From: Candidatus Latescibacterota bacterium
GTDB lineage: Bacteria; Latescibacterota; UBA2968; GCA-2709665
DNA length: 64,000 bases
NCBI GenBank assembly: GCA_965208835.1
Contig: OZ242358.1
Span: 288,001 to 352,000 of the forward strand
Reading direction: 5' to 3'
Within the stretch, counting starts at the first letter, position 1; every line of letters begins with the position of its first letter. Shown here piece after piece: positions 39,305-55,400 of the stretch. The position numbers were made by a program, and so were the translations under genes. Below the pieces are notes generated by a model. It was not told the DNA's origin and made no database searches. It was given only the letters and a program-made list of their open reading frames with translations.

Positions 39305-39325
39305 TAAAAACTGAGGAGCGATGAC

Positions 39326-40171: not shown

Positions 40172-40239
40172 TCAAGTGTGAGTCAGCGGCAGTTTATCTA
40201 CAGGCGTTGTTATGCAAAGATTGTGTGCGAGTATATCTG

Positions 40240-41598
40240 ATGAACAATGAACCCGATTCCATGGGCAAACGCCTTGACGTCGGACATAAACAATCGGGGA
40301 ATTTGCCGGTGGGTTACAAGCGAACTGAACTCGGTCTACTGCCTGACACGTGGGACGCAGTGCTTCTCGGTGACCTGTTCGTTTTCAAGAATGGCTTAAA
40401 CAAAGCCAAGCGTTTCTTCGGTACCGGGACACCTATCGTCAATTACATGGACGTTTTTGATCGCCCGGGGCTTAGTGCGGACGACCTATCAGGCAAGGTT
40501 TACCTCAGTCCTGAAGAGATCAAGAAATATGAGGTGCGGCAGGGAGACGTTTTCTTTACGCGTACTTCCGAGACTATAGAGGATGTTGGTGTTACATCCG
40601 TAATGCTCAACGAGCCCCGTGATACCGTGTTCAGTGGTTTTGTTCTTCGCGCCCGGCCGCGCGATGGTCGACTTGACAACAGCTACAAACAGTATTGCTT
40701 TGGACCCAGAGCAGTTAGGTCCCAGATCGTATCAAATGCAACATACACAACCCGTGCTCTGACGAATGGTCGATCCCTATCGGCAGTGTGGATCCCAGTT
40801 CCACCGAAGCCTGAGCAACGTGCCATCGCCGAGGCATTGTCGGATGTGGATGGTTTGCTTGCGGAGTTGGATGCGCTGATCGCCAAGAAGGGAGCCATCA
40901 AGCACGCCGCTATGCAGCAACTCCTCAAAGGCAAGAGCCGTTTGCAGGGGTTCAGCGGGGCGTGGCAGACTAAGCGGTTGGGAGATATGGGACGCTGCCT
41001 ACGCGGTGTTAGCTACGATCCGACGACAGACTTGTCTAGCTATGATAAAGACAGCACGGTAAGGCTTCTTCGATCGAGCAATATCCAAGATGCTGTCGTG
41101 ACGCCAACAGATGTCCATTATGTTGAAGCGCGAAAAGTGTCCGAGTCCCAAGTTATGCAACATAATGACATACTCGTCTGTATGGCGAATGGCAGTAAGG
41201 AGTTAGTCGGAAAAGCCGGGCTTTTTCGCATCCAAGATGGATATGCCTATACCTTTGGAGCGTTCATGGGATGCTTTCGCATCGAACTAACTATTGCTGA
41301 TCCGAGGTATGTATTTTATCTCTTCCAGTCATGCGAATTCCGCGACTTTGTTGGCCTAATCTTAGCTGGATCAAGCATCAACAATCTAAAGCCAAGCGAT
41401 ATCGAATCGGCTGAATTCCATATTCCAGACAGAAATGAACAACACGCAATCGCAGGCGTCCTCTCCGACATTGACACCGAGGTCGCCGGCTTGGAAGGAC
41501 GCAGGGAAAAGGCTTTCCTAATCAAGCGAGCCATGATGGAGCAACTTCTAACCGGGCGGGTGCGGCTGATCGAGGCAGAAGGAACAGAGGATGGCTAG
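40240..41598 (+). CDS. hsdS: Type I R-M specificity subunit
   Basis: GYKRTELGLLPDTW, two TRDs, PPKPEQRAIAEALSDVD and EQHAIAGVLSDID, MEQLLTGRVRL. Confidence 0.93.
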   Translation: MNNEPDSMGKRLDVGHKQSGNLPVGYKRTELGLLPDTWDAVLLGDLFVFKNGLNKAKRFFGTGTPIVNYMDVFDRPGLSADDLSGKVYLSPEEIKKYEVRQGDVFFTRTSETIEDVGVTSVMLNEPRDTVFSGFVLRARPRDGRLDNSYKQYCFGPRAVRSQIVSNATYTTRALTNGRSLSAVWIPVPPKPEQRAIAEALSDVDGLLAELDALIAKKGAIKHAAMQQLLKGKSRLQGFSGAWQTKRLGDMGRCLRGVSYDPTTDLSSYDKDSTVRLLRSSNIQDAVVTPTDVHYVEARKVSESQVMQHNDILVCMANGSKELVGKAGLFRIQDGYAYTFGAFMGCFRIELTIADPRYVFYLFQSCEFRDFVGLILAGSSINNLKPSDIESAEFHIPDRNEQHAIAGVLSDIDTEVAGLEGRREKAFLIKRAMMEQLLTGRVRLIEAEGTEDG

Positions 41599-44178
41599 CG
41601 TCGAGCAGGAAATCCGTAATTGGCTTCATCAGCAACAGGATTGGATTCAGGAAGCAGTTGAGAAACTGCTAGCGTCAGGTAGTTTGGAGGATAACGACAT
41701 CCAGGCCATCTCGGATCGTCTTAAGACCCCAGATGGGCAGCAGATAACGACTCACCGCAACTTCGAGGGTATTGGAAATTCCTCCTCATCCACAACCGAC
41801 GTTCACCTCCTTTCAATTGGTGATATCTGCGGAATCGAAAATCTATGTCCGCATCGTCCCCTTACGTTCGGAACCGGAAATCTCGCCGTGATCTACGGAC
41901 CCAACGGTTCGGGAAAATCCGGTTACACGCGCATCCTCAATAGAGTGTGCGGGAAACCGCGTGCGAAGGAGATCAAGCCCAACGTATTCGATAGTCGCCC
42001 TGCGAATCAGCAGTGTCGGATACGTTACGCAATAGGGGAAGAATACCAATCAGTTATTTGGCGACCGAGCGACATTGCGTTAGAGGACCTAAGAGCTGTC
42101 GATATATTTGACGCTGATGCTGCCGCTTTCTACATCAGCGAGGAAAAAGCGGTCTCCTACATGCCTCAGGCGGTAACGATGTTTGAGGCGCTAGCAAGTG
42201 TTTGCGACAGGGTCAAAGAGAAACTCCAATTCGAAAAGAGTCGATTGGTCAGCCAGCTGCCTAATCTGCCGCCAGAATATAGGTCGACTCCTCCTGGTAA
42301 AACATATACCCAGTTGAAACACGACCTCACCGAGCAACAGATCCAGTGTTTGACCAAATGGGGAGACGATAACGAAGAGAAACTTGGAAAATTGACAGAA
42401 CGCCTTAGTGCGGACGACCCGGTAAAGCTGGCGAAGATTAAGCGCAGCACGATAAGCCAACTCGAACAATTAGAATCTCAGTTGACGAACGCGGCGGAAG
42501 CCACAGGCAAGCAACAGGTGGAGGCCCTTCGGACAGCTCGAGAAAACGCAAGTCAGAAACGCAAGATTGCCGAAGAGGCAACCAACTTAAGTAAGCCAAG
42601 CTAGGCGGTATCGGCACCGAAACATGGAACGCTCTATGGGAGGCAGCGCGTGATTATTCGCAAATTGCCTATCCAGGACGAGACTATCCCGTTACAGAGG
42701 ACGACGCGAGGTGCGTCTTGTGCCATCAGAAATTGGCTCACGAGGCACGGAAACGTCTGCAGGAATTCGAAACTTTTGTCCAGGATGTAGTTGAAACTGA
42801 AGCCAAGTCGGCTGAAAACACCTACCGTGAAACGCTGGCAAAACTACCGACCAAATGGGATGACGCGGAGATCCGAACTAGATGTGAAGCTGCCGGGTTG
42901 ACGGAGGGTTGTTGGATCGACAAGCTTAGATCCTTTTGGGACAGAGTGGACGAAACGTGTAAGGATCTCTTGAACGGTGAAAACGATTCAAGAGCTGTCG
43001 CCATAGAACGACCCGATGATCTCTTGTTCGAGATGGCAAAACGTTCCGAATTACTGGAACGGGATGCACTGCAGCTTGATGAGGATGCGGAGAATTTCGA
43101 TCGAGAACAGGCACGCCAAGACAAGCTGAGTTTAGAGGCTTTGCGTTGGACGGCACAGCAAGCGACTGCAATTCACCTCGAGATCGTTCGACTAAAGAAA
43201 ATCGAGGATTATGACGAATGGGAACGACTGGCAAACTCACGGAGAATATCCCTAATGGCTGGACGTGTGGCTGAGAGGGTAGTCACGCAGGCGTATGTGG
43301 ATCGGTTCAATCGAGAACTCAAGCTGTTGGGCGCGTCGCGAATAAAGGTCAAACTAACCAAGACCCAGACGAGAAAAGGGCAAGCACTCCATGGGCTCCG
43401 CCTGAAGGGTGTACAACCTACGACAGAGAATGCTCCCGAAGCGGTCCTGAGCGAAGGAGAGCGTCGCGTCGTTTCTCTGGCGGCTTTTTTGGCCGATGTG
43501 GCAGAGAAGCCCCATGCGGCGCCATTCATTTTTGATGATCCGATCTCGTCGCTGGACCAAGACTTCGAGGGGCATGTGGCGACTCGTCTTGCGCAACTGG
43601 CACAAAGCCGCCAGGTACTCGTGTTCACACACCGGTTGTCTCTCTATGGTGCGATGGAGGATGCCGCAAGAAAGGTTGGTGCAGTTTGGAAAGACAGACA
43701 CCTTCAGCAGTGCTGTATTGAGTCGTTCTCAGGGTCCGCAGGACACCCGGCGGATGACGCTGTCTGGAATGTCAACACGAGGAAGGGCAACAATATCCTT
43801 TTGGAACGCCTCAAAGAGGCCAAGAAGGCCGGCGAAACGGGCGGTTCAAATGCCTACCAGATCCATGCACAGGGGATCTGCACTGATTTTCGCAAGCTTC
43901 TGGAGCGGACCGTCGAAGATGACTTATTGAATCAGGTCGTACGGCGGCACAGAAGGAGTGTAACGACGGAAAATAGATTGAATCCACTTGCAAGTATCAC
44001 ACGTGGAGACTGCGAATTTATCGACAATCTGATGACCAAGTATTCCTGCTACGAGCACAGTCAGTCGATGGAAACGCCGGCTTTCATTCCCGATGAGCCG
44101 GAACTTCGCGCTGACTTGGAGTCGCTGAAAGCATGGCGCGAAGAATTCAGGAAGCGTCCGCCGGAGTCCGGCATATGA
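41591..44178 (+). pseudogene. RloC-like SMC/ABC ATPase with zinc hook and HEPN-like tail, split by a 1-nt frameshift near 42592-42601
   Basis: Part 1 has Walker A GPNGSGKS; the alternate frame from 42595 reads AKLGGIGTETWNALWEAAR...CVLCHQ...LSEGERR...FDDPISSLD...VFTH...RKLLERTVE...KYSCYEH. Confidence 0.75.
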
Positions 44179-44526
44179 GCAACGTTGGCCGACCTGAGAT
44201 CCTCGCTCAAGTGTTTCCAATCTTGATGCCCTGCGGGACCACGCGACTGCCGTATTCTGGTTACATTGTAGCGTGTTCTGTTTCTGGCAAGATACGTAAA
44301 GGCCCGTCGTAAGAGGTTTCTCCTCTCAACTTAATGGGACACGATCCACGACTTGCGAGTTCATCAACTCAAGCGGTCGATTTTAGCGAAAAGTCACGCA
44401 AAAACCCAGATCGTGTTGAATGCTAAGCCGATCGTGACTATAATAGTGCAAATATCGTATCAATGAGATTCGCATTGGGGCGCGGAATTACAGATGATCA
44501 CCTAATCCTTAGGCCAGATAATTTAA

Positions 44527-44825
44527 GCCACAGGCGATCTGGAGAATGGTGCACCAGCACATGTTGGGTATTTCGAAGACGACACTCGTTCCAAGCGCCA
44601 GGCCCGGGAGTTTGAACCCGATGCCTTGTAGCGGATCGACTCCGCGCTCACCGTCTACTTCGATCCGGAACGGGAAGACCTATCGTCAGAACAGGTGAAG
44701 CTGTGGCGACAGGGAATCTGGAATCAGGGTTTCGTCCCTGTGCTATGAAAAGTTCCGCGACATAGGATTGATCTCCAAAACGGCTTCGGCTGTCCGAAAC
44801 GTATAGAGGATGCGGCGCCTTCTCT
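44527..44825 (+). pseudogene. Decayed N-terminal fragment of an N6-methylase/type IIG-like R-M gene
   Basis: Frame reads ATGDLENG...FEPDAL*RIDSALTVYF...WRQGIWNQGFVPVL*KVPRHRIDLQNGFGCP; stops TAG 44629 and TGA 44746 fall where Trp is expected. Confidence 0.5.
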
Positions 44826-44859
44826 TCGGCCAGGTGTGGCCCATCGAATTGTAATCGTT

Positions 44860-45342
44860 ATGGCGGTAACGTTTTTGGAACATGAGATAGAGTCGTTGAT
44901 ACAAGAGCGCAAGCAACTGCCTCAGGATTGGCGTACCCGGATTCGTCTAAAGTCCAAGCGTGGCCACGAAGAACAACACCTTGATATAGCAGGTGATGCG
45001 GGGAGCGAGTTTCGTCTGATTTTCAGGCAGAATAAGATCAATCCCCTCGACTTCTCAGTTATTCTGGCCGTTCGAGTACCGGGATCAAACCAACTCTTCC
45101 GCCTCCGGCGCTATAATGGCAAAGGCCAAGAACATTCGAACCGCATTGAAGGCGTGAAATTCTATGATTTTCACATTCATGTTGCTACGGAGAGGTATCA
45201 GGAACTCGGAACCAGGGAGGATGCGTACGCCGATCCAACCGACCGTTTCGGAGACTATCACGGTGCCCTTCGTTGTCTGATTTCCGATGTGAATCTTGTG
45301 GTGCCGCCGGACCTCCAAGTTGACCTTTTCGAGGAGGTGTAA
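44860..45342 (+). CDS. DUF6978-like hypothetical protein
   Basis: LRRYNG...HSN...FHIHVATERYQ His-rich motif; coupled to a DUF1828-like gene. Confidence 0.55.
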   Translation: MAVTFLEHEIESLIQERKQLPQDWRTRIRLKSKRGHEEQHLDIAGDAGSEFRLIFRQNKINPLDFSVILAVRVPGSNQLFRLRRYNGKGQEHSNRIEGVKFYDFHIHVATERYQELGTREDAYADPTDRFGDYHGALRCLISDVNLVVPPDLQVDLFEEV

Positions 45343-45345
45343 GCA

Positions 45346-46122
45346 ATGTCCTTTGAGACCATAGAGCGAGACTTTCACGAGAAGGTCTCGGCTCAGATTC
45401 GGATTGCGGCCGAGGGTATGGAACGCTTCCGCGTGTTTACCCCGTTCATGTTCGACGACGGCGATCATCTGGACATCGTTTTAAGGAAGGACGGTACACG
45501 TTGGGTGCTTTCCGATGAAGCGCATACGTATATGCATCTGACATACGACATCGATGAGAAGGATCTCCATGGTGGCACGCGTCAAAAAATCATCTCAAAT
45601 ACACTTTCCATGTTTCAGATCGAGGATCGCGACGGAGAGTTGATACTCGACGTGCCGGAGGAACGTTACGGTGACGCACTGTATTCGTTCGTTCAGGGGC
45701 TACTCAAGATATCTGACGTTTCGTACTTAACTCGGGCAAGGGTTAGTTCCACATTTATGGACGATTTTCGTACGGTGATGAGTAATGCCCTACCTGAAGA
45801 GCGCAGAGAGTTTGACTGGAGCGATCCTTTAAGGGATCCTCAAGGAAAGTATACGGTTGACTGTCGAGTCAACGGTATGCAGCGGCCCTTGTTCGTTCAT
45901 GCCCTTGCCAACGACGGCAGGACCCGCGACGCCACGATCTCGCTTCATCAATTCGAACGGTGGGAAATACCGTTTCGTTCACTCGCTATTTTCGAAGATC
46001 AGGAGTCCATCAGTCGTAAGGTGTTAGCCCGCTTCAGTGACGTCTGCGAGAAGCAATTCTCCAGCCTCACTGCAAATCAAGAGAGGATAACGCGCTTTCT
46101 GAGCGAGAACATATCGGGATAA
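45346..46122 (+). CDS. DUF1828/DUF1829-like protein (possible PD-(D/E)xK C-terminal domain)
   Basis: TPFMFDDGDHL...WVLSDE.HT N-terminal motif; GKYTVDC in the C-terminal half. Confidence 0.7.
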   Translation: MSFETIERDFHEKVSAQIRIAAEGMERFRVFTPFMFDDGDHLDIVLRKDGTRWVLSDEAHTYMHLTYDIDEKDLHGGTRQKIISNTLSMFQIEDRDGELILDVPEERYGDALYSFVQGLLKISDVSYLTRARVSSTFMDDFRTVMSNALPEERREFDWSDPLRDPQGKYTVDCRVNGMQRPLFVHALANDGRTRDATISLHQFERWEIPFRSLAIFEDQESISRKVLARFSDVCEKQFSSLTANQERITRFLSENISG

Positions 46123-46344
46123 ACCACGATTTAAGTAGACTTGCTTAGATCGCCTTGGCGGAGTTGTGCCGGGACAGGATCCGTTCTGTCAAAAAGGGAG
46201 TGATGCTGCAGCTTCTTCCTAGACGGATGAGCCTGATCGAACTGAGTTTTAGATGGCACAACGGGCCAACGTTAGACACACGGAACCGAGTTTCTTCAAT
46301 TACAGACCTGTGATGCCAAAACACAGATTTCAGGAGGCATTTTG

Positions 46345-47304
46345 ATGGTCAATGCCGTAAATAGCCAGCAAGAGTCAGCGCCAACGATTGTTGAGGACGA
46401 ACACTTTCCGGGGCTATATCAGAGTGCCGATCGGTCCTCGATCTCGGCACAGCGGCGCTATATTCACTTTCATCGATGGCATTTATTCTGTCTTATCTTT
46501 GGGAGCGTTAGTGTCGCCATAGCGACGAAATTTCCAGTTGCCGCCACATGGACCTACGTTCTCCTAGCGATCGTTCTGGCAATTGGCATCTTTCTTACTC
46601 TGATATCCCGGGTCCGTCGGGATAATGAAGTTTGGTTTGACTGTCGGGCGATTGCTGAGTCAACAAAGACCGCCACATGGCGATTCATGATGAAGGCTGA
46701 ACCATTCAAGGATGACAGTACGTCTGAGCAGTCATTTCTTGAGAAACTTCGGCAAATTAGAGGGGCGAGACCTTCCAGCCCGAAGGATTTAGCGCAAAAC
46801 CTCGATGCAAACGCTCAATCCGTTAGTGGTTTTATGAATGAAATTCGTCGGAAATCCGTGGAAGAACGGCGGAACCTATATCTTGAGTCGCGGCTTCGCG
46901 ATCAAAAAACCTGGTATTCAAATAAAGCCATCTTCAATTCAAGGAAGGAAAATCGTTGGTCTTGGACAGTTGTTGTGCTACAGATTTCCGCCATTGTTTT
47001 TGCGATTATTCAGGCGTGTTTGAGTGGCTTACCATTAAACGTGGTCCCATTGTTGATGACTTGCGCTGCTTCTGCGGTCGCCTGGAGCCATATGAAGCGC
47101 TACAGTGAGCTGGCTCAGTCCTATTCGCTCGCCGCCCAGGAACTCGGAGATCAGGAAACAGTCGCGTTGGATATAACGGAAGAGGCTGATTTCCTCGAAC
47201 TCGTGGAGCAGGTCGAGGAGACTATCTCTCGTGAGCACACTATGTGGTGTGTACGGCGAAATGTAATTTTCGGTCCAACCCACGCGGACGACGAAATGGC
47301 GTAA
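46345..47304 (+). CDS. Tandem SLATT (DUF4231-like) 4-TM effector
   Basis: Two TM hairpins; WFDCRAIAESTKTATWRFMM and YLESRLRDQKTWY..KA..N; LVEQVEETISREHTMW; AGGAGG RBS. Confidence 0.85.
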   Translation: MVNAVNSQQESAPTIVEDEHFPGLYQSADRSSISAQRRYIHFHRWHLFCLIFGSVSVAIATKFPVAATWTYVLLAIVLAIGIFLTLISRVRRDNEVWFDCRAIAESTKTATWRFMMKAEPFKDDSTSEQSFLEKLRQIRGARPSSPKDLAQNLDANAQSVSGFMNEIRRKSVEERRNLYLESRLRDQKTWYSNKAIFNSRKENRWSWTVVVLQISAIVFAIIQACLSGLPLNVVPLLMTCAASAVAWSHMKRYSELAQSYSLAAQELGDQETVALDITEEADFLELVEQVEETISREHTMWCVRRNVIFGPTHADDEMA

Positions 47305-47392
47305 AGTCAGTATTCTGTTCCGAAACTTACTCTTCGATGGACAGAAGTCTTACGTGGCGTTCTTCAGATTCAAGCAATCAAGGATGATTAGG

Positions 47393-48418
47393 ATGACAAT
47401 CCAACATTGCGATGGAGCCAAATACCTTAACGTCGAATCCTCTACGGCAATCGAACGAAGCCAGGAGTTATACATCGCTGAGACAACCGTTCAACTACCT
47501 TGTTTCTTTCCTTCAGTTTCGAGCGTGAAGACAAGCCTATCGCCGGTCAGTTACGCTGACTTTCTGACCGTTACTGGTCATCCACTATTTTTAGCCTCTG
47601 CATATGATTTAGCCCATTGTCCTGATGATCAGCGCCCGGGCATGGAAACTGCCCTTAATAGACGTATAGATAGCGGTGCCGTTGTACTTATTGATAGCGG
47701 AAACTACGAAAGCTATTGGAAACAAGATTCCGATTGGGGACCGGCTGATTTTCATAAGGTCGTGCAATCCTATCAACACGATCTCTGCTTCTGTTTTGAT
47801 AACCTGATGCCACCTGACTCTCCGAAATTGATCTCCGACGATGTCGTGGCAGGTGTAACAAGAGATCAGGAGAATGCACAGACAACAGTGCTTCCGATAG
47901 TCCATGGCAACGCGGAAGCACTGCCTGATGCGGCGCGATTAACAGCGGAAAAGCTCTACCCTTTATTGTTGGCTGTCGCGGAACGAGATTTGGGTGAGGG
48001 AATTCTCGATCGGGTTCGCACCGTACGGAGAATCCGAGTAGCGTTAAACGCATTAGGCTTCTATTGCCCGCTTCACCTGCTTGGAACCGGAAATCCGATT
48101 TCAATCATTGCCTATACATTGGCAGGAGCCGATAGTTTTGATGGATTGGAATGGTGTCAGGCGGTCGTTGATCACGAGAATGGCAGGCTCTTACATTTTC
48201 AGCAATGGGATTTGATCCGAAACCAAACAGAGTGGGGTCAATCTCCCGTACTACCGTACGTCCAATCTGTCTTAATGCACAATCTGGTTTTTTATCGCGA
48301 GTTCATGGTAGGGTTTCAGGAAGCACTGTATACCGGAAGAGTTGAATCGTTCGTACAAAAGTATGTAACTAAGGAACAATTGGATCTACTATTGCCTGCT
48401 ATCGAAGGAGTTCAATAG
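47393..48418 (+). CDS. tRNA-guanine transglycosylase-like protein (Cap10-like)
   Basis: FFPSVSS, DSGNYES, PIVHG, LHLLGTG, GADSFDG, HNL; start uncertain (47354-47393). Confidence 0.8.
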   Translation: MTIQHCDGAKYLNVESSTAIERSQELYIAETTVQLPCFFPSVSSVKTSLSPVSYADFLTVTGHPLFLASAYDLAHCPDDQRPGMETALNRRIDSGAVVLIDSGNYESYWKQDSDWGPADFHKVVQSYQHDLCFCFDNLMPPDSPKLISDDVVAGVTRDQENAQTTVLPIVHGNAEALPDAARLTAEKLYPLLLAVAERDLGEGILDRVRTVRRIRVALNALGFYCPLHLLGTGNPISIIAYTLAGADSFDGLEWCQAVVDHENGRLLHFQQWDLIRNQTEWGQSPVLPYVQSVLMHNLVFYREFMVGFQEALYTGRVESFVQKYVTKEQLDLLLPAIEGVQ

Positions 48419-48419
48419 C

Positions 48420-49133
48420 TTGGCGCCGAAAAATTTCACGCTACTTTCTATCGAACAAGCGATCCGCGATGTGTGCAACACATTACAAGAACGCCCGACT
48501 GTGTCCTGGAGAAACCACAGCGAAGATGAACTGTGGAGAGAGCTTGTGTCATGTATCCTGGGTAGTCGGGTAAGAGTCAAGGCTGTTAATGCTGCCATCG
48601 AACGCATGAGCAGTATGTGTCTGTTGACGCGACCCCATCCACGCGCTTGTTTTAATCAACTTGAACAGGACACTATAACAGCGCTTACGGGAGGTTATCC
48701 TTTTTTTCGTGTCCGTGCCAATCAGATTCGGCGGGCGGCAGAACACATATACACTTCCCGAGGGTCAATTCTAAACCTGCTTAATGACTTAGATGACGTT
48801 TGTATAGCTCGAAGACTGTTAGTGCGAGAGGTTCCGGGTCTGGGACCGAAACAGGCAAGTCTTTTCCTCCGCAACATATGTTTCGCAAAGTACATTGCGA
48901 TCTTGGATGTACATATACTGACTTATTTGCGGTGGATAGGCATTACAGACTCATCGCTAAAATCGATTCCGAATCTAGGCCAATACGAAGCGTTGGAAGG
49001 CGCCTTTATCGAACATGCTTGTGCATTCGGATACTCGCCTGACCGGTTCGACCTTGCAGTCTGGATTGTAATAAGGGTAGTAAAGGAGGAATCCAAAATT
49101 GCGGATCGTGACTCTTGTATCGGGTGGATTTGA
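48420..49133 (+). CDS. 8-oxoguanine glycosylase/lyase-like HhH protein (Cap11-like)
   Basis: LWRELVSCILGS, GLGPKQASLFLRN (catalytic K), AILDVH (catalytic D), FDLAVW. Confidence 0.85.
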   Translation: MAPKNFTLLSIEQAIRDVCNTLQERPTVSWRNHSEDELWRELVSCILGSRVRVKAVNAAIERMSSMCLLTRPHPRACFNQLEQDTITALTGGYPFFRVRANQIRRAAEHIYTSRGSILNLLNDLDDVCIARRLLVREVPGLGPKQASLFLRNICFAKYIAILDVHILTYLRWIGITDSSLKSIPNLGQYEALEGAFIEHACAFGYSPDRFDLAVWIVIRVVKEESKIADRDSCIGWI

Positions 49134-49695
49134 TTCAACTCTTGTGAGCGTGATGGCGAAAGAGGAGGGAGCAGAGCTGTTTCCGCTTTTTGTTGATTAC
49201 GGCCAACTTGCCGTGCGCAATGAATGGGCGGCCTGCAAGCGACTTCACTCACAATTCGGTCTACCACCTGTTACGTACATGGATTTGTCTGGGTTTGGTA
49301 AGACGATCTCGAGTGGTCTCACAGACTGTAGTTTACGTATTAATGAAGATGCTTTTTTGCCGGGTCGCAATCTCCTATTTGTCTTGGCAGGAGCGGCTCA
49401 TGCTATTGATGTTCAGGCAAATAGCATCGCGCTCGGACTACTGAATCCCGCGGATCACATTTTTCCAGACCAAACGAAACAGTTTTTGGAAGAATGTGAA
49501 AGGATGATCGAGGTTGCGATGGGGAGCCGCATTCTTGTCCTTGCGCCTTTACTCGAGTTGTCAAAGCGAGATGTCTTGCTCTTGGCTAGCAAACGAGGGA
49601 TCACACAAGCCTATTCGTGTCATGCTGGTGGTGAAGAACCTTGTGGAGTGTGTATCGCATGCATTGAGATATATAATGCGAAAAAAAGGAGGTAA
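49099..49695 (+). CDS. QueC-like 7-cyano-7-deazaguanine synthase homolog (Cap9-like)
   Basis: SGGFDS PP-loop, VDYGQ, PGRNLLF, FPDQT, SCH...PCGVCIAC Zn site; TTG start after AAGGAGG. Confidence 0.88.
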   Translation: MRIVTLVSGGFDSTLVSVMAKEEGAELFPLFVDYGQLAVRNEWAACKRLHSQFGLPPVTYMDLSGFGKTISSGLTDCSLRINEDAFLPGRNLLFVLAGAAHAIDVQANSIALGLLNPADHIFPDQTKQFLEECERMIEVAMGSRILVLAPLLELSKRDVLLLASKRGITQAYSCHAGGEEPCGVCIACIEIYNAKKRR

Positions 49696-49697
49696 TG

Positions 49698-50201
49698 ATG
49701 GGTGGCATCGGCAGTGGTAGAGGATTGGACCCAAACGAAATGGAGACACTCGAGCAGCGTGTCAGAAGGTCATTTAGGGATCGTGTCGACGAGCACAAAC
49801 GCAATGTGTTTATTAGTTTTACGTCGGATGATCTCAGTGAGGTTAACTTGCTTCGTGCTCAGGCGAGGAACCAAGACAGCAACATTAGCTTTAATGATTG
49901 GTCACTGAGAAAGCCGTTCGATAGTGAGGCAGCCGACTACATCAGGCGCGGCATCAGGGAACGTATTCGCCAATCCTCTGTGACTGTTGTTTATGTGTCT
50001 GAAAACACCGCTGATAGCAGATGGGTCAACTGGGAGATACGAGAGAGCCTTGCAATGGGGAAGGGCATCGTCGCCATGCACAAAGGAAATACACCGCCAC
50101 GAAGACTTCCTAAGGCGATAACCGAAAACAATATCAGTGTCGTACCATGGAGACAGGATCGTCTTGCAAGTATCATTGAGAGGGAATCCGAGAATCGTTA
50201 G
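49698..50201 (+). CDS. ThsB-like TIR domain protein (DUF1863) with Gly-rich N-terminus
   Basis: NVFISF, FNDWSL, YIRRGIRERIRQSSVTVV, SRWVNWEI (catalytic Glu), GKGIVA; begins MGGIGSGRG. Confidence 0.88.
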   Translation: MGGIGSGRGLDPNEMETLEQRVRRSFRDRVDEHKRNVFISFTSDDLSEVNLLRAQARNQDSNISFNDWSLRKPFDSEAADYIRRGIRERIRQSSVTVVYVSENTADSRWVNWEIRESLAMGKGIVAMHKGNTPPRRLPKAITENNISVVPWRQDRLASIIERESENR

Positions 50202-50416
50202 AAGCGCAGCTGTAAACATAGCCTCGACATTTTTCAATGGTTATTGCTGGGATCTGTCCGCAAAAAGAATAGATATTGACGTCTCGGGTCAACGATTCAC
50301 GAAGCCAACAGGCGTATATGGAGATAAAGTGAATTTGAACGAACAAGATTTCTCGCGCCTCCTGGGATTGCTAAGTTGACTTCTTACAATAAGGTACTCG
50401 CTGAGGAGGGTCCCAA

Positions 50417-51778
50417 ATGTTGACACGGCTACGCCTGGAGAATTTCAAATCTTGGGAAAATACAGGTGACATAACGTTTAGGCCTATCACTGGCTTTTTC
50501 GGTACCAATAGTTCTGGTAAGACCAGCCTTTTTCAAGCTCTGTTACTGATGAAACAAACGATAGATTCCCCAGACCCTGGAATTGTGTTGCACTTCGGTG
50601 ATGAGAAAACACTAGTCGACTTAGGCGATTTTGAGAGTGTGGTCCACGAGCATGACACAGACCGAAGTATTAGACTGTCGCTGGGCTGGAACTCAGAGAT
50701 TGATCTGCCATTTCCGGATACGACTAACACTGGGACTCCAACGTCAGGTAACGAAATCGGATTTGATGTTGATCTCGCGGAGGAGAATGTCGGTTCCGGG
50801 AAGTCGCCAATACTCAGAAAAATGGCATATAGTGTCCGTGGAAGGCGGTTTGGTTTGGCGCAAGTACTGGGTAGGAAGGAACACGATTTGTTTGTCAGCG
50901 GTGCCGGCTTGGATAGGTCTCACCGCGTCAGCGATGACGGTCGGTTAGCTCGTTCGATTAAATTTCACGAGTTTAGATATTGGCTTCCTGAGTTTTTCAA
51001 AGACCCGGCTATAATGTATCGTCTCCAATACGCATTGGAGTTGTTCTTAAGGGATCTATTTTATCTTGGACCTCTCCGTGCCTACCCGTCTCGGATCTAT
51101 GCACGGTCTGGAGCACAACCTCGGGACATGGGCCCGGCAGGTGAATTCGCGGTAGACGCAATCCTATCGTCTCGCGAACGTGGCAGGAAGATTAGTCATC
51201 GTCGACGATCTCTAAGTTTCGAGAGATATGTCGCGCAATGGCTTATGCGTCTCGGATTGATATACGACTTTCGCGTAGTGGCATTAACTAAAGGGAGACG
51301 CCTGTTCGAGGTAAGGGTCCGAAAGTCACCCAATTCGGCGGAGGTTCTCCTCACGGACATCGGCTTCGGAGTTTCACAGATACTTCCCGTGTTGGTGCTT
51401 TGCTTCTATGTCCCACGTAAGTCCAAGATCATCTTGGAGCAGCCAGAGATTCACCTGCATCCCTCTGTGCAGGCGGGACTTGCCGATGTATTCGTCGACG
51501 CTTGGAAGCAACGCAATGTGCAAGTATTGTTCGAAAGCCATAGTGAGCATTTACTGCTCAGACTTCAGCGTCGTATCGCCGAGGGAAAAATAAAAAGAGA
51601 TGATGTTAGCCTCTTTTTCTGTTCGATGGACGACCGAGGTGTCTCGACACTCAGCCAACTCGAAGTAGACGATTTCGGGAACATTTCGAATTGGCCGAGG
51701 GATTTCTTTGGTGACCAATTCGGCGAGATTGCTAATATGAATGAGGCTGCGCAGAAGAGGAAGCGAGGTACTGTGTAG
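50417..51778 (+). CDS. AAA_15/AAA_21-type ABC ATPase with DUF3696 C-terminus
   Basis: LENFKSW, GTNSSGKTS, YLGPLR, DIGFGVSQILP, LEQPEIHLHP, ESHSEH, WPRDFF. Confidence 0.88.
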   Translation: MLTRLRLENFKSWENTGDITFRPITGFFGTNSSGKTSLFQALLLMKQTIDSPDPGIVLHFGDEKTLVDLGDFESVVHEHDTDRSIRLSLGWNSEIDLPFPDTTNTGTPTSGNEIGFDVDLAEENVGSGKSPILRKMAYSVRGRRFGLAQVLGRKEHDLFVSGAGLDRSHRVSDDGRLARSIKFHEFRYWLPEFFKDPAIMYRLQYALELFLRDLFYLGPLRAYPSRIYARSGAQPRDMGPAGEFAVDAILSSRERGRKISHRRRSLSFERYVAQWLMRLGLIYDFRVVALTKGRRLFEVRVRKSPNSAEVLLTDIGFGVSQILPVLVLCFYVPRKSKIILEQPEIHLHPSVQAGLADVFVDAWKQRNVQVLFESHSEHLLLRLQRRIAEGKIKRDDVSLFFCSMDDRGVSTLSQLEVDDFGNISNWPRDFFGDQFGEIANMNEAAQKRKRGTV

Positions 51779-51780
51779 GA

Positions 51781-52278
51781 ATGAGCAAGACGGAAATAGT
51801 AATGGATACGAATGTAGCTATCGTTGCAAATGGTGAAGCCGAACAGGCATGCGAAGACTGCATTTGTGCATGTATTGCAAGATTACGCCATATTATGGAT
51901 GAGTGCCGCCTCTTAGTGGACGACAATTACCGGGTCTTTAACGAATATCAGAGACACCTAAGACGCTCTGGACAACCAGGACCCGGCGACGCCTTTTTTA
52001 AATGGCTCTGGCTAAACCAGGCTAATAACGAACATTGCAGGATGGTTCCGGTGACGCCTCATGAAGATGATGATTGTGGATTCGAGGAATTCCCTGATGA
52101 TCCAAATCTAAGCACATTTGACCGATCTGATCGCAAATTTGTCGCAATAGCGTTGGCAAGCGGTACAGAGCCAATGGTTCTAAATGCCACCGATACGGAC
52201 TGGTGGTCGCACCGGCACGTATTAGGAAGACATGGCGTTGGGTTAGTCTTCATCTGTCCAGAACTGATGATCCGCTGA
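51781..52278 (+). CDS. PIN-domain-like protein
   Basis: IVMDTNV, FNEY, DRSDRKFVA, NATDTDW acidic tetrad pattern. Confidence 0.7.
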   Translation: MSKTEIVMDTNVAIVANGEAEQACEDCICACIARLRHIMDECRLLVDDNYRVFNEYQRHLRRSGQPGPGDAFFKWLWLNQANNEHCRMVPVTPHEDDDCGFEEFPDDPNLSTFDRSDRKFVAIALASGTEPMVLNATDTDWWSHRHVLGRHGVGLVFICPELMIR

Positions 52279-52430
52279 AATCGAGATATTTGCTAAAGTT
52301 CATACCTTGGCAGAAGATAATGAAGATTTCTATTCCGCATATGACCAAGGGTGCCACAGTTGTGAAGAGTTGGTCCGGCAGCCGAATTGTAATACAGATG
52401 CACCAAAACTAAGACTCAGAACATTCTCAT

Positions 52431-55400
52431 ATGACCTCAGTCGGCCAAAAGGAAATACGCACACAGCGACAGGTGATCGCCTTCTTCCGGTATGCGCTTG
52501 GATACAACTATCTCGGTGACTGGCAGGATCGCACCGATAACAGCAATATCGAGAAGGGGCTGCTTACCAATTGGTTGAAGCGAAATGGTCACCGCGATAG
52601 GGTAATCAACAAGGTACTGCGTGATCTCGACAAGGCAGGTGCAATCGGCGGCAGTAAGACGCTCTACGATGCAAACCGTGAGGTGTACGGTCTGCTTCGT
52701 TACGGCGTGAAGGTACGACCTGACGTCGGCGAACCGAACGTCACTGTCTGGCTGATCGACTGGGTGAATCCGGCAAATAACGACTTCGCGATCGCCGAGG
52801 AAGTTACGGTGTCAGATACAAACACCAAGCGACCGGACATCGTACTGTACGTTAACGGACTCGCGCTTGGGGTGCTGGAATTGAAGCGCTCGACGGTATC
52901 GGTTGCGGAAGGTATCCGGCAGAACCTCGACAACCAGAAGAAGGAGTTCATCCGGCCGTTTTTTGCCACGGTGCAACTCGTGATGGCTGGAAATGATTCC
53001 GAAGGGTTGCGCTACGGCGTGATCGAGACACCCGAGAAATACTGGCTGCGCTGGAAAGAAACGAACGGCATCCCGGCTGCTGGCGACAATCCTTTACTGC
53101 GCGAGTTGAGCCAGCTCTGCAGCAAAGAGCGATTACTTGAAATCGTACACGACTTCGTCGTCTTTGACGCAGGCGTAAAGAAGATTTGTCGCCACAACCA
53201 ATACTTCGGTGTTCGTGCGGCCCAGGAGCGAGTGAAAAGCCGGGAGGGCGGCATCATCTGGCACACGCAAGGCAGCGGCAAGAGCCTGACGATGGTCTGG
53301 CTGGCGAAATGGATTCGCGAGAACGTCACCGACTCAAGAGTCCTTCTCATCACGGATCGTACCGAGTTGGATGAGCAAATTGAGGCTGTCTTTAAGGGTG
53401 TCAGCGAGGACATCTACCGCACGAAGAGTGGCGCTGATCTCGTGCAGGTGCTAAATAGACCTGACGAATGGCTGATCGGCTCCCTTATCCACAAGTTCGG
53501 TGCAACCGAGGACATCAGCGAAAGAGAAATCGAGGACTATGTCGAGGAGATCAAGAAGAATCTACCCGGTGGGTTCCGTGCCAAGGGCGAGATTTTCGTT
53601 TTCGTGGACGAATGTCACCGCACCCAGTCCGGGAAACTACACGAGGCAATGAAGGCAATATTGCCGGGCGCGATGCTGGTCGGCTTTACCGGCACGCCGT
53701 TACTTAAATCAGACAAACGCCGAAGTATCGAGACCTTTGGTACCTACATCCACACCTACAAGTACGATGAAGCAGTTCGCGACGGCGTGGTACTGGACTT
53801 ACGTTACGAGGCTCGTGACATCGATCAGAATACCACCTCCCAGGAGAAGATAGACCAGTGGTTCGAAGTCAAGACGCAGGGACTGAACGATGTGGCGAAG
53901 GCACAACTGAAGCAGCGCTGGGGCACGATGCGGAAAGTGTTAAGCTCACGGGATCGCCTGGAGAAGATCGTCGCCGACATTCAGATGGACATGGAGATAA
54001 ACGACCGACTCAAGAGCGGTCATGGCAATGCCCTTCTGATTTCTGGCAGCATCGACTCCGCCTGCCGCTTCTTTGAGATGTTTCAGCAGACAGATCTGGC
54101 GGGAAAATGCGCCATCGTCACGTCCTACAAACCGGCGCCAGGAGACATCAAAGGTGAGGAGACCGGCGAAGGACTAACGGAAAAGCTGCGGCGATACAGT
54201 ATCTATCGAAAGATGCTTGCCGCGCACTTCGACGAGCCGGAAGACACCGCAATGAACAAGGTTGAACGGTTTGAACTCGAGGTAAAGAAGCGATTCGTCA
54301 AGGAACCGGGCCAGATGAAGCTGCTGATCGTGGTAGATAAGCTGCTGACCGGTTTCGATGCGCCATCTGCGACATATCTCTACATTGACAAACACATGCA
54401 GGACCACGGGCTTTTCCAGGCGATCTGCCGAGTCAATCGCCTCGACGGCGACGACAAAGAATACGGATACATCGTCGACTACAAGGACCTGTTCCGCTCG
54501 CTGGAGCAGTCAATTCAGGATTATACCGGAGGAGCCTTCGGCGGGTACGACCAAGCCGATGTGAAGGGGTTGCTCAAAGATAGACTCACGAAAGGTCGGG
54601 AACGGCTCGAGGAAACGCGAGAAGCGATCCGGGCGCTGTGCGAACCTGTCGCGCCGCCACGCGACTCTGCGTCATACCGGCGTTTCTTCTGCGGGATCGA
54701 AAGTGGCGATATAGAGGAACTCAAGGAAAACGAGCCGCGGCGTATAGCCCTTTATAAGCGGACTGCGGCGCTTTTGCGAGCTTACGCAAACCTGGCCAAT
54801 GAAATGCAAGAGGCAGGTTATAGTGAAGCCGAAACGCAGCAGATCAGGATAGAGGTTGATCACTACGAAAATGTCCGAAAGGAGGTCAAACTCGCGAGTG
54901 GCGACTACATCGACCTGAAGATGTATGAGCCCGCTATGCGCCACCTCCTCGACACATACATCCGCGCTGAGGATAGCGAAAAGCTCTCGACATTTGACGA
55001 CCTAACACTTGTGCAACTGATTGTCAAGCAAGGTGAAAACGCATTGAATACGTTACCTGAGAGTATCCGCAGCGATCCCGAAGCGGCGGCCGAGACGATA
55101 GAAAATAACATGCGTCGTCTGATCATCGACGAGACGCCCGTTAACCCGAAATATTACGGCAGGATGTCTGAGCTGCTGGACGCTCTGATCCTCCAGCGGA
55201 AGCAGGAACGTCTAGACTACAAGATGTACCTGGCAAGAATTGTTGAATTGGCCGGAAAAGTGACCAACCCTGAAACCGAGACGTCGTATCCATCGGAAAT
55301 TGACAGCAACACACTCAGGACACTATTCGACAACCTACAGGGCGCTACAGTTGGACAGGATAGACCGTATGCCGATTCGGCCATAGAACGTTCCAAGGAT

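What the first reader, a model, noticed from the sequence alone, without database searches (positions are those of the whole stretch)
46345..50201. SLATT-TGT-OGG-QueC-TIR operon: type IV CBASS ancillary module wired to a Thoeris-type TIR instead of a CD-NTase
Seen: five co-oriented genes inside a defence island, the last four abutting or overlapping. They encode a tandem SLATT 4-TM protein, a TGT-like protein, an OGG-like HhH glycosylase, a QueC-like enzyme and a ThsB-like TIR with its catalytic Glu (WVNWEI). No CD-NTase is recognisable in the window; the only nucleotidyltransferases are two small MNTs 42 kb away. Established: QueC/TGT/OGG homologs (Cap9/10/11) define type IV CBASS, where Cap9 attaches a 7-deazaguanine base to the N-terminus of the cyclase and Cap10 binds the modified cyclase. 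ThsB TIRs make NAD-derived signals, and SLATT domains are predicted membrane effectors. Inference: a hybrid anti-phage system in which deazaguanylation licenses a TIR signal generator that triggers a SLATT membrane effector. I know of no experimentally described system with this architecture, though comparative surveys may have listed the neighbourhood.
Basis: partly seen in the sequence, partly recalled or inferred. Interest (0 to 1): 0.95.

Follow-up and report, generated by a model that had tools for sequence, protein, structure and literature searches.

The report
TIR–SLATT defence operon with deazaguanylation genes
This is a five-gene anti-phage operon in which a TIR signalling enzyme carries the same glycine-rich front end that marks CBASS cyclases for tagging with a 7-deazaguanine base; the layout is real and widespread, but a 2025 preprint has already noted it.

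Summary
Five co-oriented, tightly packed genes encode a tandem SLATT 4-TM protein, a Cap10-like TGT, a Cap11-like OGG, a Cap9-like QueC and a ThsB-type TIR. They sit inside a type I restriction-modification defence island.

The order TGT-OGG-QueC-TIR recurs in metagenomic loci wherever enough DNA is held: QueC 68/68, OGG 55/55, TGT 46/47. Of 39 loci with room for an effector, 34 have SLATT, 4 have a TPR-S effector and 1 has none recognised. No CD-NTase recurs, and the window's own genome has no SMODS match.

New here: the TIR starts Met-Gly-Gly with a glycine-rich tail and a helix, like type IV CBASS cyclases. A modelled Cap10-like/TIR complex scores 0.86 against a best control of 0.00.

Best reading: a type VII-like Thoeris system whose TIR is licensed by N-terminal deazaguanylation.

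I file it as a new member of a known kind, of moderate interest.

The parts
46345..47304 (+). Tandem SLATT membrane protein (SLATT_3 + SLATT_1, 4 predicted TM segments); presumed signal-activated effector (ThsH-like). The ORF opens at TTG 46342; ATG 46345 lies 6 nt after an AGGAGG.
   Evidence: (NCBIfam SLATT_3 6.8e-40, SLATT_1 9.7e-32). Full-length homologues (about 33% identity, 89-90% coverage) pair with a 134-aa TIR on enterobacterial plasmids in 3 of 3 loci inspected.
47354..48418 (+). Cap10-like TGT-family protein. The likely start is ATG 47393: residues 1-31 of the long ORF are disordered in the model, and homologues start later.
   Evidence: Cap10 9ntn is the only PDB hit of the profile, 5.6e-12; Foldseek top hit 9ntn_A, TM 0.64/0.69. 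D114/S115, H241 and D263 align with Cap10 D73/S74, H226 and D248. D149 is also shared with 3 of 3 plasmid CBASS Cap10s.
48420..49133 (+). Cap11-like HhH-GPD glycosylase (archaeal-type Ogg family).
   Evidence: K144 in GLGPKQ and D163 are invariant in 27 homologues; best PDB hit 3fhg, N-glycosylase/DNA lyase, 7.3e-23.
49099..49695 (+). Cap9-like QueC-family PP-loop enzyme (198 aa); presumed deazaguanine-protein ligase.
   Evidence: (SGGxDS, R90, D124 and the C174/C182/C185/C188 cluster are invariant or nearly so).
49698..50201 (+). ThsB-type TIR protein (167 aa) with catalytic Glu113; presumed NAD-derived signal generator. The ORF also has an ATG at 49695, but AAAGGAGG lies 5 nt before 49698 and homologues start MGG.
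   Evidence: (top fold match B. cereus TIR 8fz9, TMt 0.72-0.74).
49698..49802 (+). N-terminal handle of the TIR (residues 1-35): MGGIGSGRGLDP tail, then a helix (residues 12-27 in the model) and a linker. It is absent from stand-alone small ThsB-like TIRs and resembles the modified N-terminus of type IV CBASS cyclases.
   Evidence: CdnD peptide GGSGGSFGSGFDPR, modified on G2; 3 of 3 plasmid CD-NTases start MGGSGG; the strict tail motif occurs once in the six-frame translation of the genome; TIR residues 6-10 and 14-25 lie in the modelled interface.

Best explanation
The locus is a Thoeris-type anti-phage signalling system. Its layout is that of type VII Thoeris (a TIR signal generator with a SLATT membrane effector), joined to the ancillary module of type IV CBASS: Cap10-like TGT, Cap11-like OGG and Cap9-like QueC.

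Proposed sequence of events:
1. After the initiator Met is removed, the Cap9-like enzyme uses ATP and host-made 7-carboxy-7-deazaguanine to form an amide with the alpha-amine of Gly2 of the TIR (N-terminal deazaguanylation).
2. The Cap10-like protein binds the modified tail and the following helix, and holds the TIR in a primed but inactive complex.
3. Phage infection releases or relocates the TIR. The TIR self-associates and converts NAD+ into a cyclic ADP-ribose signal, most likely canonical cADPR.
4. The tandem SLATT protein binds the signal, oligomerises and breaches the membrane, aborting the infection.
5. The OGG-like glycosylase acts as a negative regulator or recycler.

Shown here: the gene content, its conservation, the shared N-terminal tail, the conserved catalytic residues and a modelled Cap10-like/TIR interface.

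Inferred by analogy with published systems: the chemistry of the modification, the identity of the signal, the trigger and the role of OGG.
For: Domains.

Conserved synteny. Upstream of the tailed TIR, where enough DNA is held, QueC is present in 68/68 loci, OGG in 55/55 and TGT in 46/47. These come from 83 loci carrying 63 distinct TIR sequences, which form 44 clusters below 85% identity. Of 39 loci with at least 3.9 kb upstream, 34 have SLATT, 4 have a TPR-S/MAP3K_TRAF_bd effector and 1 has none recognised. Synteny persists while the SLATT falls to about 30-35% identity to the window's protein and the TGT-like to about 37%.

The N-terminal tail.
- 119 of 120 database homologues start Met-Gly (111 MGG, 8 MGS), and 119 of 120 have at least 4 Gly in residues 2-9.
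- 73 of 77 locus TIRs start MGG.
- Three type IV CBASS cyclases on Bacillus and Pseudanabaena plasmids start MGGSGG, followed by an L..LEQ helix.
- The published CdnD peptide GGSGGSFGSGFDPR is deazaguanylated on G2 (passages read). The window reads GGIGSGRGLDP.
- Control: 74 of 9,945 crude ORFs of the genome start MGG, and the strict tail motif occurs once in the genome, at this TIR.

Complex model. Cap10-like + TIR gives a median ipSAE of 0.86 (runs 0.87, 0.79, 0.86) against a best of 3 controls of 0.00. That mark was reached by 58 of 80 solved complexes and 2 of 110 mismatched pairs. The runs share at least 84% of contacts and the partner's pLDDT is at least 80. No TIR-Cap10 structure appeared among the PDB sequence or fold matches of either protein, which makes a pass from memory less likely.

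Catalytic residues.
- Cap10 D73/S74, H226 and D248 have identical counterparts.
- Cap9 R86 and D117 have counterparts R90 and D124; Y115 is replaced by F122.
- The OGG-like Lys/Asp pair is invariant.
- The TIR Glu is invariant.

Host supply. The genome has two QueC equivalogs, a tgt, a QueD-like gene and a weak QueE-like gene.

Signal identity. The preprint reports that ThsH (SLATT) and ThsI (a TPR-bearing effector) both respond to canonical cADPR (passages read). In this TIR family the effector alternates between SLATT and TPR-S, and Rhizobium plasmids carry both.
Against: There is no experiment on any member of this architecture. The preprint offers only AlphaFold3 models.

The QueC-like profile scores higher against housekeeping QueC structures (2.2e-23 and 2.1e-21) than against Cap9 (2.5e-19). 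Only the single-sequence search ranks Cap9 first.

In the tree, the nearest relatives of the TIR-linked QueC-likes are QueC-likes from PfkB/deoxyribosyltransferase loci, not CBASS Cap9. An exclusive TIR+CBASS clade is 4.2 log-likelihood units worse, although it is not rejected (p-AU 0.19).

Cap10 K154 has no clear counterpart. D122 was mapped only through plasmid Cap10s, not through the solved chain.

Foldseek ranks Cap10 first only narrowly over ordinary TGTs.

The TIR model has modest confidence (pLDDT 70.7).

SLATT domains also serve CBASS, so the domain family does not fix the ligand. I could not compare this SLATT with the verified ThsH proteins.

26 of 83 loci also hold a second, tail-less small TIR, so in those loci the tailed TIR need not be the only signal source.

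The related loci were chosen by TIR similarity and are kin, so the counts are not independent events.

The consensus scan found no sigma-70-type promoter-like site upstream of the operon.
Confidence: 0.75

Rival explanations
1. The tailed TIR is itself the effector. It would be an NAD+-depleting NADase kept in check by Cap9/Cap10/Cap11 and would not make a signal. The SLATT protein would act independently, or be served by another TIR where one is present.
For: Some bacterial TIR proteins deplete NAD+ directly (established knowledge, recalled). 26 of 83 related loci carry an extra small ThsB-like TIR next to the effector, so TIR+SLATT could be a self-contained type VII pair beside a four-gene module. 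One locus (L055) has the four genes and no recognised effector.
Against: The window has no second TIR, which would leave its SLATT an orphan. 12 of the 25 loci with ample flanks on both sides also lack a second TIR. 38 of 39 informative loci keep a signal-responsive type of effector (SLATT or TPR-S) next to the module. The effector type swaps while the four-gene module stays, which is the expected behaviour of a generator-effector pair.
Confidence: 0.12
2. The QueC/TGT/OGG genes modify nucleic acid, that is, a Dpd-like 7-deazaguanine DNA modification or a tRNA modification. TIR and SLATT would be an unrelated neighbouring toxin pair.
For: QueC and TGT homologues make and insert 7-deazaguanines into tRNA and DNA (established). 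The QueC-like profile matches QueC structures well. The catalytic Asp/His pair of the TGT fold and the Lys/Asp pair of the glycosylase are retained.
Against: All three proteins fail the NCBIfam cut-offs for the housekeeping enzymes. The genome has separate housekeeping copies. The TGT-like C-terminal third holds a single Cys and no CxCxxC zinc motif (read from the sequence; the motif itself is recalled). A tblastn search of plasmids finds only Cap10-type relatives, each beside either a TIR or a CBASS cyclase. The TIR bears the Cap9-substrate tail, and the tailed TIR is always the adjacent gene. PADLOC gives no other system match for these proteins.
Confidence: 0.04
3. The operon is a degraded type IV CBASS that lost its cyclase and lies by chance next to an unrelated TIR.
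For: Cap9/10/11 homologues were first defined in type IV CBASS, and no cyclase is present.
Against: The same cyclase-less arrangement recurs in dozens of diverged loci, in three phylum-level labels of named records and on plasmids of cultured rhizobia. The TIR carries the tail. All genes are intact and have Shine-Dalgarno sites.
Confidence: 0.01
4. The architecture and logic are as in the best explanation, but the group attached to Gly2 is not 7-amido-7-deazaguanine. The QueC-like enzyme would activate a different carboxylate, as is still open for QatC.
For: The QatB/QatC paper states that the first substrate of QatC is unidentified (PMC13376578, passages read). The TIR-linked QueC-likes are not the closest relatives of CBASS Cap9.
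Against: The base-contacting Cap9 residues R86 and D117 have identical counterparts, and Y115 a conservative one (F122). A TGT-fold partner with the deazaguanine-pocket residues D114/S115/D149 is retained. The host has the CDG pathway genes.
Confidence: 0.08

Closest known systems
Thoeris operons with cap9, cap10 and cap11 (bioRxiv 10.64898/2025.12.03.692087, Fig. 6G and S10B; example ThsB from Pseudomonadales bacterium SP163)
   Same: A TIR and an effector, with Cap9-, Cap10- and Cap11-like genes, in one operon without a cyclase. The TIR is predicted to bind Cap10 (their AF3 ipTM 0.79; here ipSAE 0.86 against a best control of 0.00).
   Different: This is a different organism (the nearest named records are Candidatus Latescibacterota MAGs). 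I could not see their figure or supplements, so I do not know which effectors their examples carry, or whether they report the Gly tail. Neither they nor I have experimental data.
Type VII Thoeris (ThsB TIR + ThsH SLATT effector; signal canonical cADPR; same preprint)
   Same: A ThsB-type TIR with its catalytic Glu next to a SLATT-domain membrane protein. Full-length homologues of this SLATT pair with a small TIR on plasmids.
   Different: Type VII is a two-gene system with a tail-less TIR. Here three ancillary genes are inserted and the TIR has a 35-residue N-terminal handle. The signal has not been determined for this TIR.
Type IV CBASS (CD-NTase + Cap9 + Cap10 +/- Cap11 + effector; Wassarman et al., bioRxiv 10.1101/2025.04.06.647259)
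   Same: It has the same three ancillary families and the same kind of Met-Gly-Gly... tail plus helix on the signal-generating enzyme. The Cap10 pocket and catalytic-pair residues are conserved. SLATT-type membrane effectors also occur in CBASS.
   Different: The signal generator is a TIR, an unrelated fold with NAD+ as substrate, instead of a CD-NTase. The gene order differs (Cap10-Cap11-Cap9-TIR here; Cap9-Cap10-cyclase on the plasmids). The QueC-like is not the nearest relative of CBASS Cap9.
QatABCD (QatC, a QueC-family enzyme, acting on Gly2 of QatB; PMC13376578, PMC13279940)
   Same: A QueC-family enzyme is paired with a partner protein whose long N-terminal tail begins with Gly2.
   Different: There is no QatA, QatB or QatD here. 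The NCBIfam QatC model does not match the window's QueC-like protein, and PADLOC gives no Qat match.

Membership tests
Cap9/Cap10/Cap11-associated Thoeris (preprint Fig. 6G) | A TIR (ThsB-type) gene with its catalytic Glu in the operon | tested here: met
   ThsB_TIR 1.5e-24; E113 invariant; fold match to bacterial TIR/ThsB structures.
Cap9/Cap10/Cap11-associated Thoeris (preprint Fig. 6G) | cap9-, cap10- and cap11-like genes in the same operon | tested here: met
   The genes abut or overlap.
Cap9/Cap10/Cap11-associated Thoeris (preprint Fig. 6G) | An effector gene present and no CD-NTase | tested here: met
   Tandem SLATT. No SMODS match in the whole genome. No recurrent cyclase in 106 flanking ORFs of related loci (top 25 of 90 families shown).
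Type VII Thoeris | A SLATT-domain effector (ThsH) adjacent to the TIR | tested here: met
   Same operon, three genes apart. Homologues of this SLATT sit next to a small TIR in 3 of 3 plasmid loci inspected. Direct comparison with verified ThsH proteins was not possible.
Type VII Thoeris | The TIR produces canonical cADPR, which activates the effector | not testable with these tools
   Inference only, from the SLATT/TPR-S effector alternation and the preprint's finding that ThsH and ThsI both respond to cADPR.
Type IV CBASS | A CD-NTase signal synthase in the operon | tested here: not met
   No SMODS match in the genome at E<=0.001. The operon has no room for one. It is therefore not a CBASS, although it probably works like one at the licensing step.
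Type IV CBASS | The signal enzyme has a Met-Gly... N-terminal tail that is the Cap9 substrate | tested here: met
   The tail is on the TIR instead of a cyclase. The modification itself cannot be tested here.
Type IV CBASS | Cap10 pocket residues (D73, S74, D122, K154) and the D248/H226 pair | tested here: inconclusive
   D114/S115, H241 and D263 align directly with 9ntn. D149 was mapped only through plasmid Cap10s. No counterpart of K154 was found.
Housekeeping queuosine enzymes (QueC, Tgt) and repair Ogg | A score above the NCBIfam equivalog or superfamily cut-off | tested here: not met
   QueC 111.7 < 150.3; tgt_general 27.9 < 47.6; N-glycosylase/DNA lyase 83.2 < 183. The genome's own QueCs score 158.6 and 158.5, and its tgt scores 514 bits on Pfam TGT.
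QatABCD | QatC-type QueC with QatA, QatB and QatD partners | tested here: not met
   No NCBIfam QatC match for the window's protein. No PADLOC Qat match for any of the ten proteins scanned.

The most novel reading that the evidence does not exclude
The roughly 35-residue N-terminal handle (Met-Gly-Gly-rich tail plus an amphipathic helix) is a portable address tag. It lets the Cap9/Cap10/Cap11 deazaguanylation module license signal-generating enzymes of unrelated folds, CD-NTases and TIRs alike. On this reading the TIR-wired form is a major natural home of protein deazaguanylation, perhaps the main one. It also shows further elaborations that nobody has described mechanistically: Cap10 fused to an extra TIR domain, second tail-less TIRs, and swaps between SLATT and TPR-S effectors.
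Probability: 0.5. Interest if true: 0.6.

Novelty: new member of a known kind. Interest (0 to 1): 0.45.

Why it matters
Protein deazaguanylation was shown for one enzyme class, the type IV CBASS cyclases, and a related reaction is proposed for QatB. How the modified enzyme becomes active is still open, and so is the target of the modification.

A TIR-wired version gives an independent comparison. It has the same ancillary trio and the same tail, but a different catalytic fold and substrate. Features common to both must belong to the licensing mechanism rather than to cyclase biology.

The family is easy to reach. It occurs on plasmids of cultured Rhizobium and Agrobacterium strains and is frequent in metagenomes (413 relatives in one scan). 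The tail motif gives a simple, falsifiable mass-spectrometry prediction.

For annotation, these QueC, TGT and OGG genes should not be named as queuosine-synthesis or DNA-repair enzymes.

Tried and rejected
- Promoter and terminator scan of 45900-50600: 2 promoter-like sites against 5.7 expected, 6 terminator-like sites against 3.9 expected, none informative.
- tRNA scan of the window: none found, so there is no integration-site clue.
- First QueC tree, with only 2 housekeeping rows: it gave three clans and could not say which are sisters. I rebuilt it with 8 housekeeping and 4 other defence-linked rows.
- Sequencing runs: no RNA holder listed.
- Viral contigs: only 2 relatives of the TIR in IMG/VR, not followed up.
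- Burroughs et al. 2015 (NAR), which I recall as defining SLATT/SMODS and noting QueC/TGT/OGG links, is not held. A search for SMODS+SLATT+QueC found no paper. A search for SLATT/QueC/TIR/OGG returned only irrelevant papers.
- In the searched library, the only paper found to link Thoeris with Cap9/Cap10 is the Dec 2025 preprint. The other papers holding these terms were either seen only in the listing or, where I read passages (PMC13376578, PMC13434031), do not connect them. The QueC-family survey PMC13082051 contains no 'TIR', 'Thoeris' or 'SLATT'.
- Supplementary tables of the preprint (its Table S1, Fig. 6G and Fig. S10) could not be seen. They may already list this family, its effectors or the tail.
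- QueE: only a weak sub-threshold match to the E. coli-type model (43.6 bits against a cut-off of 200). The CDG pathway is therefore inferred, not shown in full.
- Direct mapping of Cap10 D122/K154 onto the solved chain failed, because HMMER aligned only chain residues 13-79 and 190-255.
- A bad coordinate range for L108 gave an error. The scan was resent without it, and the 362-aa frame in genome G055 was not examined.

Full report
**1. What is there**

Window 46.3-50.2 kb holds five + strand ORFs.

| Gene product | Coordinates | Size | Main evidence |
|---|---|---|---|
| Tandem SLATT | 46342/46345-47304 | 319-320 aa | Pfam SLATT_3 3.2e-33 and SLATT_1 5e-32; NCBIfam SLATT_3 6.8e-40 and SLATT_1 9.7e-32; four hydrophobic segments in two pairs |
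| TGT-like | 47354-48418 | 354 aa as the longest ORF | Pfam TGT 1.3e-10; PADLOC TGT 6.7e-23 |
| HhH-GPD glycosylase | 48420-49133 | 237 aa | Ogg-HhH 3.7e-22 |
| QueC-like | 49099-49695 | 198 aa | QueC 2.9e-34; PADLOC QueC 1.3e-27 |
| TIR | 49695/49698-50201 | 167-168 aa | ThsB_TIR 1.5e-24; 16 PADLOC families, 14 of them ThsB models |

The last four genes abut or overlap. Shine-Dalgarno-like sequences precede the starts at 46345, 47393, 48420, 49099 and 49698 by 5-9 nt. For the TIR, AAAGGAGG ends 5 nt before the second ATG (49698). Homologues begin MGG, so I take 49698 as the start.

The first 31 residues of the long TGT ORF are disordered in the AlphaFold2 model, so its real start is probably ATG 47393.

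**2. Context**

The operon lies in a low-G+C stretch (about 0.50 against about 0.59). This stretch is a nest of defence genes inside a type I restriction-modification system:

- hsdM, 36863-39304
- hsdS, 40159-41598
- a PDC-S06 homologue in two pieces, 41591-42604 and 42718-44178
- a DUF6978 / DUF1828 (PDC-M24B-like) pair
- the five genes described above
- HEC-03B and HEC-03A, 50417-52278
- hsdR, 52431-55580

No tRNA gene lies in the window.

The genome is a single 5.18-Mb contig, 97.8% complete. It has no SMODS match, and it holds separate housekeeping genes:

- two QueC equivalogs, 158.6 and 158.5 bits against a cut-off of 150.3
- one tgt, 514 bits
- a QueD-like gene
- a weak QueE-like gene

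**3. Is the arrangement conserved?**

Named genomes. The TIR finds two Candidatus Latescibacterota MAGs with the same five genes in the same order. It also finds a Proteobacteria MAG contig with TGT-OGG-QueC-TIR that is cut at its end.

Protein database. The TIR family has 1,109 clusters at E<=1e-5. The best 120 are all 161-175 aa long.

Metagenome scan. A scan with the family alignment found 413 relatives, of which 80 loci were kept. Together with the three genomic loci they make the 83 loci counted:

| Gene upstream of the TIR | Present / loci with enough DNA |
|---|---|
| QueC-like | 68/68 |
| OGG-like | 55/55 |
| TGT-like | 46/47 (L067 lacks it) |

Of the 39 loci with at least 3.9 kb upstream:

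- 34 have a SLATT protein: 27 tandem and upstream, 6 short or cut, and 1 tandem and downstream
- 4 have a 442-aa TPR-S/MAP3K_TRAF_bd protein instead
- 1 (L055) has no recognised effector

The loci hold 63 distinct TIR sequences in 44 clusters below 85% identity. They are kin chosen by TIR similarity, so the counts are not independent events. Even so, synteny holds while the SLATT falls to about 30-35% identity and the TGT-like to about 37%.

A Pfam tally of 106 flanking ORFs of 200-700 aa lists restriction-modification, BREX, AAA_21, WYL and TPR-S families and no cyclase. Only the top 25 of 90 families are shown, and 26 ORFs longer than 700 aa were not scanned.

Plasmids of cultured strains. 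Plasmids of cultured Rhizobium, Agrobacterium and Neorhizobium strains carry OGG, QueC and a tailed TIR behind a TIR-Cap10 fusion. In the locus inspected (Rhizobium sophoriradicis, L088) a PfkB-family gene lies upstream, and a SLATT, a TPR-S protein and a small TIR lie divergently.

Within the window's own phylum the TIR is patchy. It is found in 6 of 168 genomes including this one, and in 3 of 14 other genomes of the genus. This is the pattern expected of a mobile defence system.

**4. The new piece of evidence: the N-terminal handle**

- Of the 120 best database homologues, 111 start MGG, 8 start MGS and 1 starts MVG. 119 of 120 have at least four Gly in residues 2-9.
- Of 77 complete locus TIRs, 73 start MGG. 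Of the other four, two start MGV and MGS, and two are artefacts of my choice of start codon.
- After the tail comes a conserved motif, RGL(T/D)P.EL..LEQRAK. It forms a helix at residues 12-27 in the model, which has a pLDDT of 70.7.
- The first TIR strand begins near residue 38. In stand-alone small ThsB-like TIRs it begins at residues 5-8. The handle is therefore an addition of about 35 residues.
- Wassarman et al. (bioRxiv 10.1101/2025.04.06.647259, passages read) showed the following for the type IV CBASS cyclase CdnD. It loses Met1. It carries 7-amido-7-deazaguanine on Gly2 of the peptide GGSGGSFGSGFDPR. Cap9 installs the group. Cap10 binds the modified tail and helix alpha-1.
- The window's TIR reads GGIGSGRGLDP.
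- Three bona fide type IV CBASS operons that I found on Bacillus and Pseudanabaena plasmids have cyclases that start MGGSGG, followed by an L..LEQ helix.
- Control: 74 of 9,945 crude ORFs of this genome start MGG, and the strict tail motif occurs exactly once in its six-frame translation, at this TIR.

**5. The ancillary proteins**

TGT-like protein:
- Alone it matches Cap10 (9ntn) at 3e-7 and archaeosine TGT at 1.6e-4. As a profile it matches Cap10 only, at 5.6e-12.
- Its model (pLDDT 88.1) has 9ntn_A as the top Foldseek hit (TM 0.64/0.69). Ordinary TGTs follow closely, at TM 0.56-0.60.
- D114/S115, H241 and D263 align with Cap10 D73/S74, H226 and D248. D149 and 33 other positions are shared with 3 of 3 plasmid Cap10s. 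K154 has no clear counterpart.
- A tblastn search of 72,556 plasmid records finds only Cap10-type genes: 13 beside TIRs and 4 beside cyclases. Ten of the 13 are near-identical Rhizobium plasmids.

QueC-like protein:
- It keeps the PP-loop, R90, F122 and D124 (Cap9 R86, Y115 and D117), and the Cys cluster.
- Its placement is less clean. The single-sequence search ranks Cap9 first (6e-13 against 1.2e-10), but the profile ranks housekeeping QueC first (2.2e-23 against 2.5e-19).
- In a 31-row tree, a 95/91 branch puts 16 TIR-linked, 3 CBASS and 3 other defence-linked QueC-likes apart from all 8 housekeeping QueCs and the Moraxella QueC-like.
- Inside that set, the TIR-linked ones sit next to QueC-likes from PfkB/deoxyribosyltransferase loci (95/87).
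- An exclusive TIR+CBASS clade is not rejected (p-AU 0.19).

OGG-like protein:
- It keeps the HhH Lys (K144) and the Asp (D163) in all 27 aligned homologues. It resembles archaeal-type Ogg structures.

All three proteins fall below the NCBIfam cut-offs for the housekeeping enzymes.

**6. Modelled binding**

The Cap10-like protein plus the TIR, each supplied with its alignment, gave ipSAE values of 0.87, 0.79 and 0.86 (median 0.86). The best of three controls scored 0.00. That mark was reached by 58 of 80 solved complexes and 2 of 110 mismatched pairs. The runs agree in at least 84% of contacts, and the partner's pLDDT is at least 80.

The confident interface includes TIR residues 6-10 and 14-25, which are the tail and the helix. 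It also includes Cap10-like residues that flank the pocket: 108, 143-144, 177-178 and 235-236.

This is the model's own confidence, not a measurement. The Cap10-cyclase complex is solved, but no TIR-Cap10 complex appeared among the PDB matches.

**7. Which signal?**

The preprint (passages read) defines type VII Thoeris as TIR + SLATT (ThsH) and type VIII as TIR + a TPR-bearing CMP-hydrolase-like effector (ThsI). Both respond to canonical cADPR, and rare operons hold both effectors.

In the family studied here the effector alternates between SLATT and a TPR-S protein, and the Rhizobium plasmids hold both.

Full-length homologues of the window's SLATT (about 33% identity) pair with a 134-aa TIR on enterobacterial plasmids in 3 of 3 loci inspected, out of 81 records with a match.

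I therefore infer a cADPR-type signal, most likely canonical cADPR. This step is inference only.

**8. Prior knowledge and novelty**

The same preprint states that some Thoeris operons carry cap9, cap10 and cap11. It adds that AlphaFold3 predicts the TIR of Pseudomonadales bacterium SP163 to bind Cap10 (ipTM 0.79) and Cap9 (ipTM 0.62), 'suggesting a similar mechanism'. It reports no experiment on such an operon.

Searches for Thoeris with Cap9/Cap10, and for 'deazaguanylation', found no other paper that links the two.

The architecture is therefore already in print as an observation, and this locus is a new member.

- the shared tail-plus-helix handle, with counts and a genome-wide control
- the neighbourhood census
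- the effector alternation
- the TIR-Cap10 fusions and the second small TIRs
- residue-level and tree-based placement of the ancillary proteins
- a controlled complex model

**9. Verdict**

The best explanation is a type VII-like Thoeris system licensed by N-terminal deazaguanylation of its TIR (confidence 0.75).

The main rival is that the tailed TIR is itself an NADase effector (0.12).

Interest is moderate (0.45). The idea is no longer surprising to specialists, but the family offers a clean and accessible test of how deazaguanylation controls immune signalling enzymes.

Noticed in passing
window 36863-55580: The five-gene system, a PDC-S06 homologue, a DUF6978/DUF1828 (PDC-M24B-like) pair and HEC-03B/A are all inserted between hsdM/hsdS and hsdR of one type I restriction-modification system. 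Two related MAGs keep HEC-03 and hsdR downstream, but one of them differs upstream.
   Followed up: partly
window 41591-42604 and 42718-44178: PDC-S06 is split into two ORFs that match profile positions 1-334 and 382-859 of an 862-position model, with a gap of about 113 nt. It is either a broken gene or a two-part form.
   Followed up: no
L010, L011, L022, L025, L035, L038, L067-L070 and others (26 of 83 loci): Many related loci hold a second, tail-less small ThsB-like TIR (130-137 aa) next to the effector. The window lacks it.
   Followed up: partly
L080:5220-6662, L082, L088:4821-6224 (Rhizobium plasmid): In one subclade the Cap10-like protein carries an extra N-terminal TIR_2 domain (467-480 aa), so the locus holds up to three TIR domains.
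   Followed up: partly
L099, L100, L101, L102 (plasmids of Neotabrizicola, Cupriavidus, Bacillus cereus, Moraxella): This looks like a separate QueC-linked set of loci. A PfkB/nucleoside-deoxyribosyltransferase fusion sits beside a QueC-like gene (fused to it in one case). In three of the four loci a 118-125-aa protein starting MGSSGSG, MGSTGTG or MSGSGGG precedes it; none is annotated in the Neotabrizicola locus. The Moraxella locus adds an anti-phage dGTPase. These QueC-likes are the nearest relatives of the TIR-linked ones in the tree.
   Followed up: partly
L108 (genome G055, same genus): The TIR match covers only residues 55-164 of the query and lies in a 362-aa open frame, which may be a fused or rearranged form.
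   Followed up: no
L067:4400-5725: This is the one locus, out of 47, without a detectable TGT-like gene upstream of OGG. Its sister contigs L068-L070 have one, so the gene may be truncated or replaced here.
   Followed up: no
window 39326-40171: A 281-aa ORF lies between hsdM and hsdS with no Pfam or PADLOC match.
   Followed up: no
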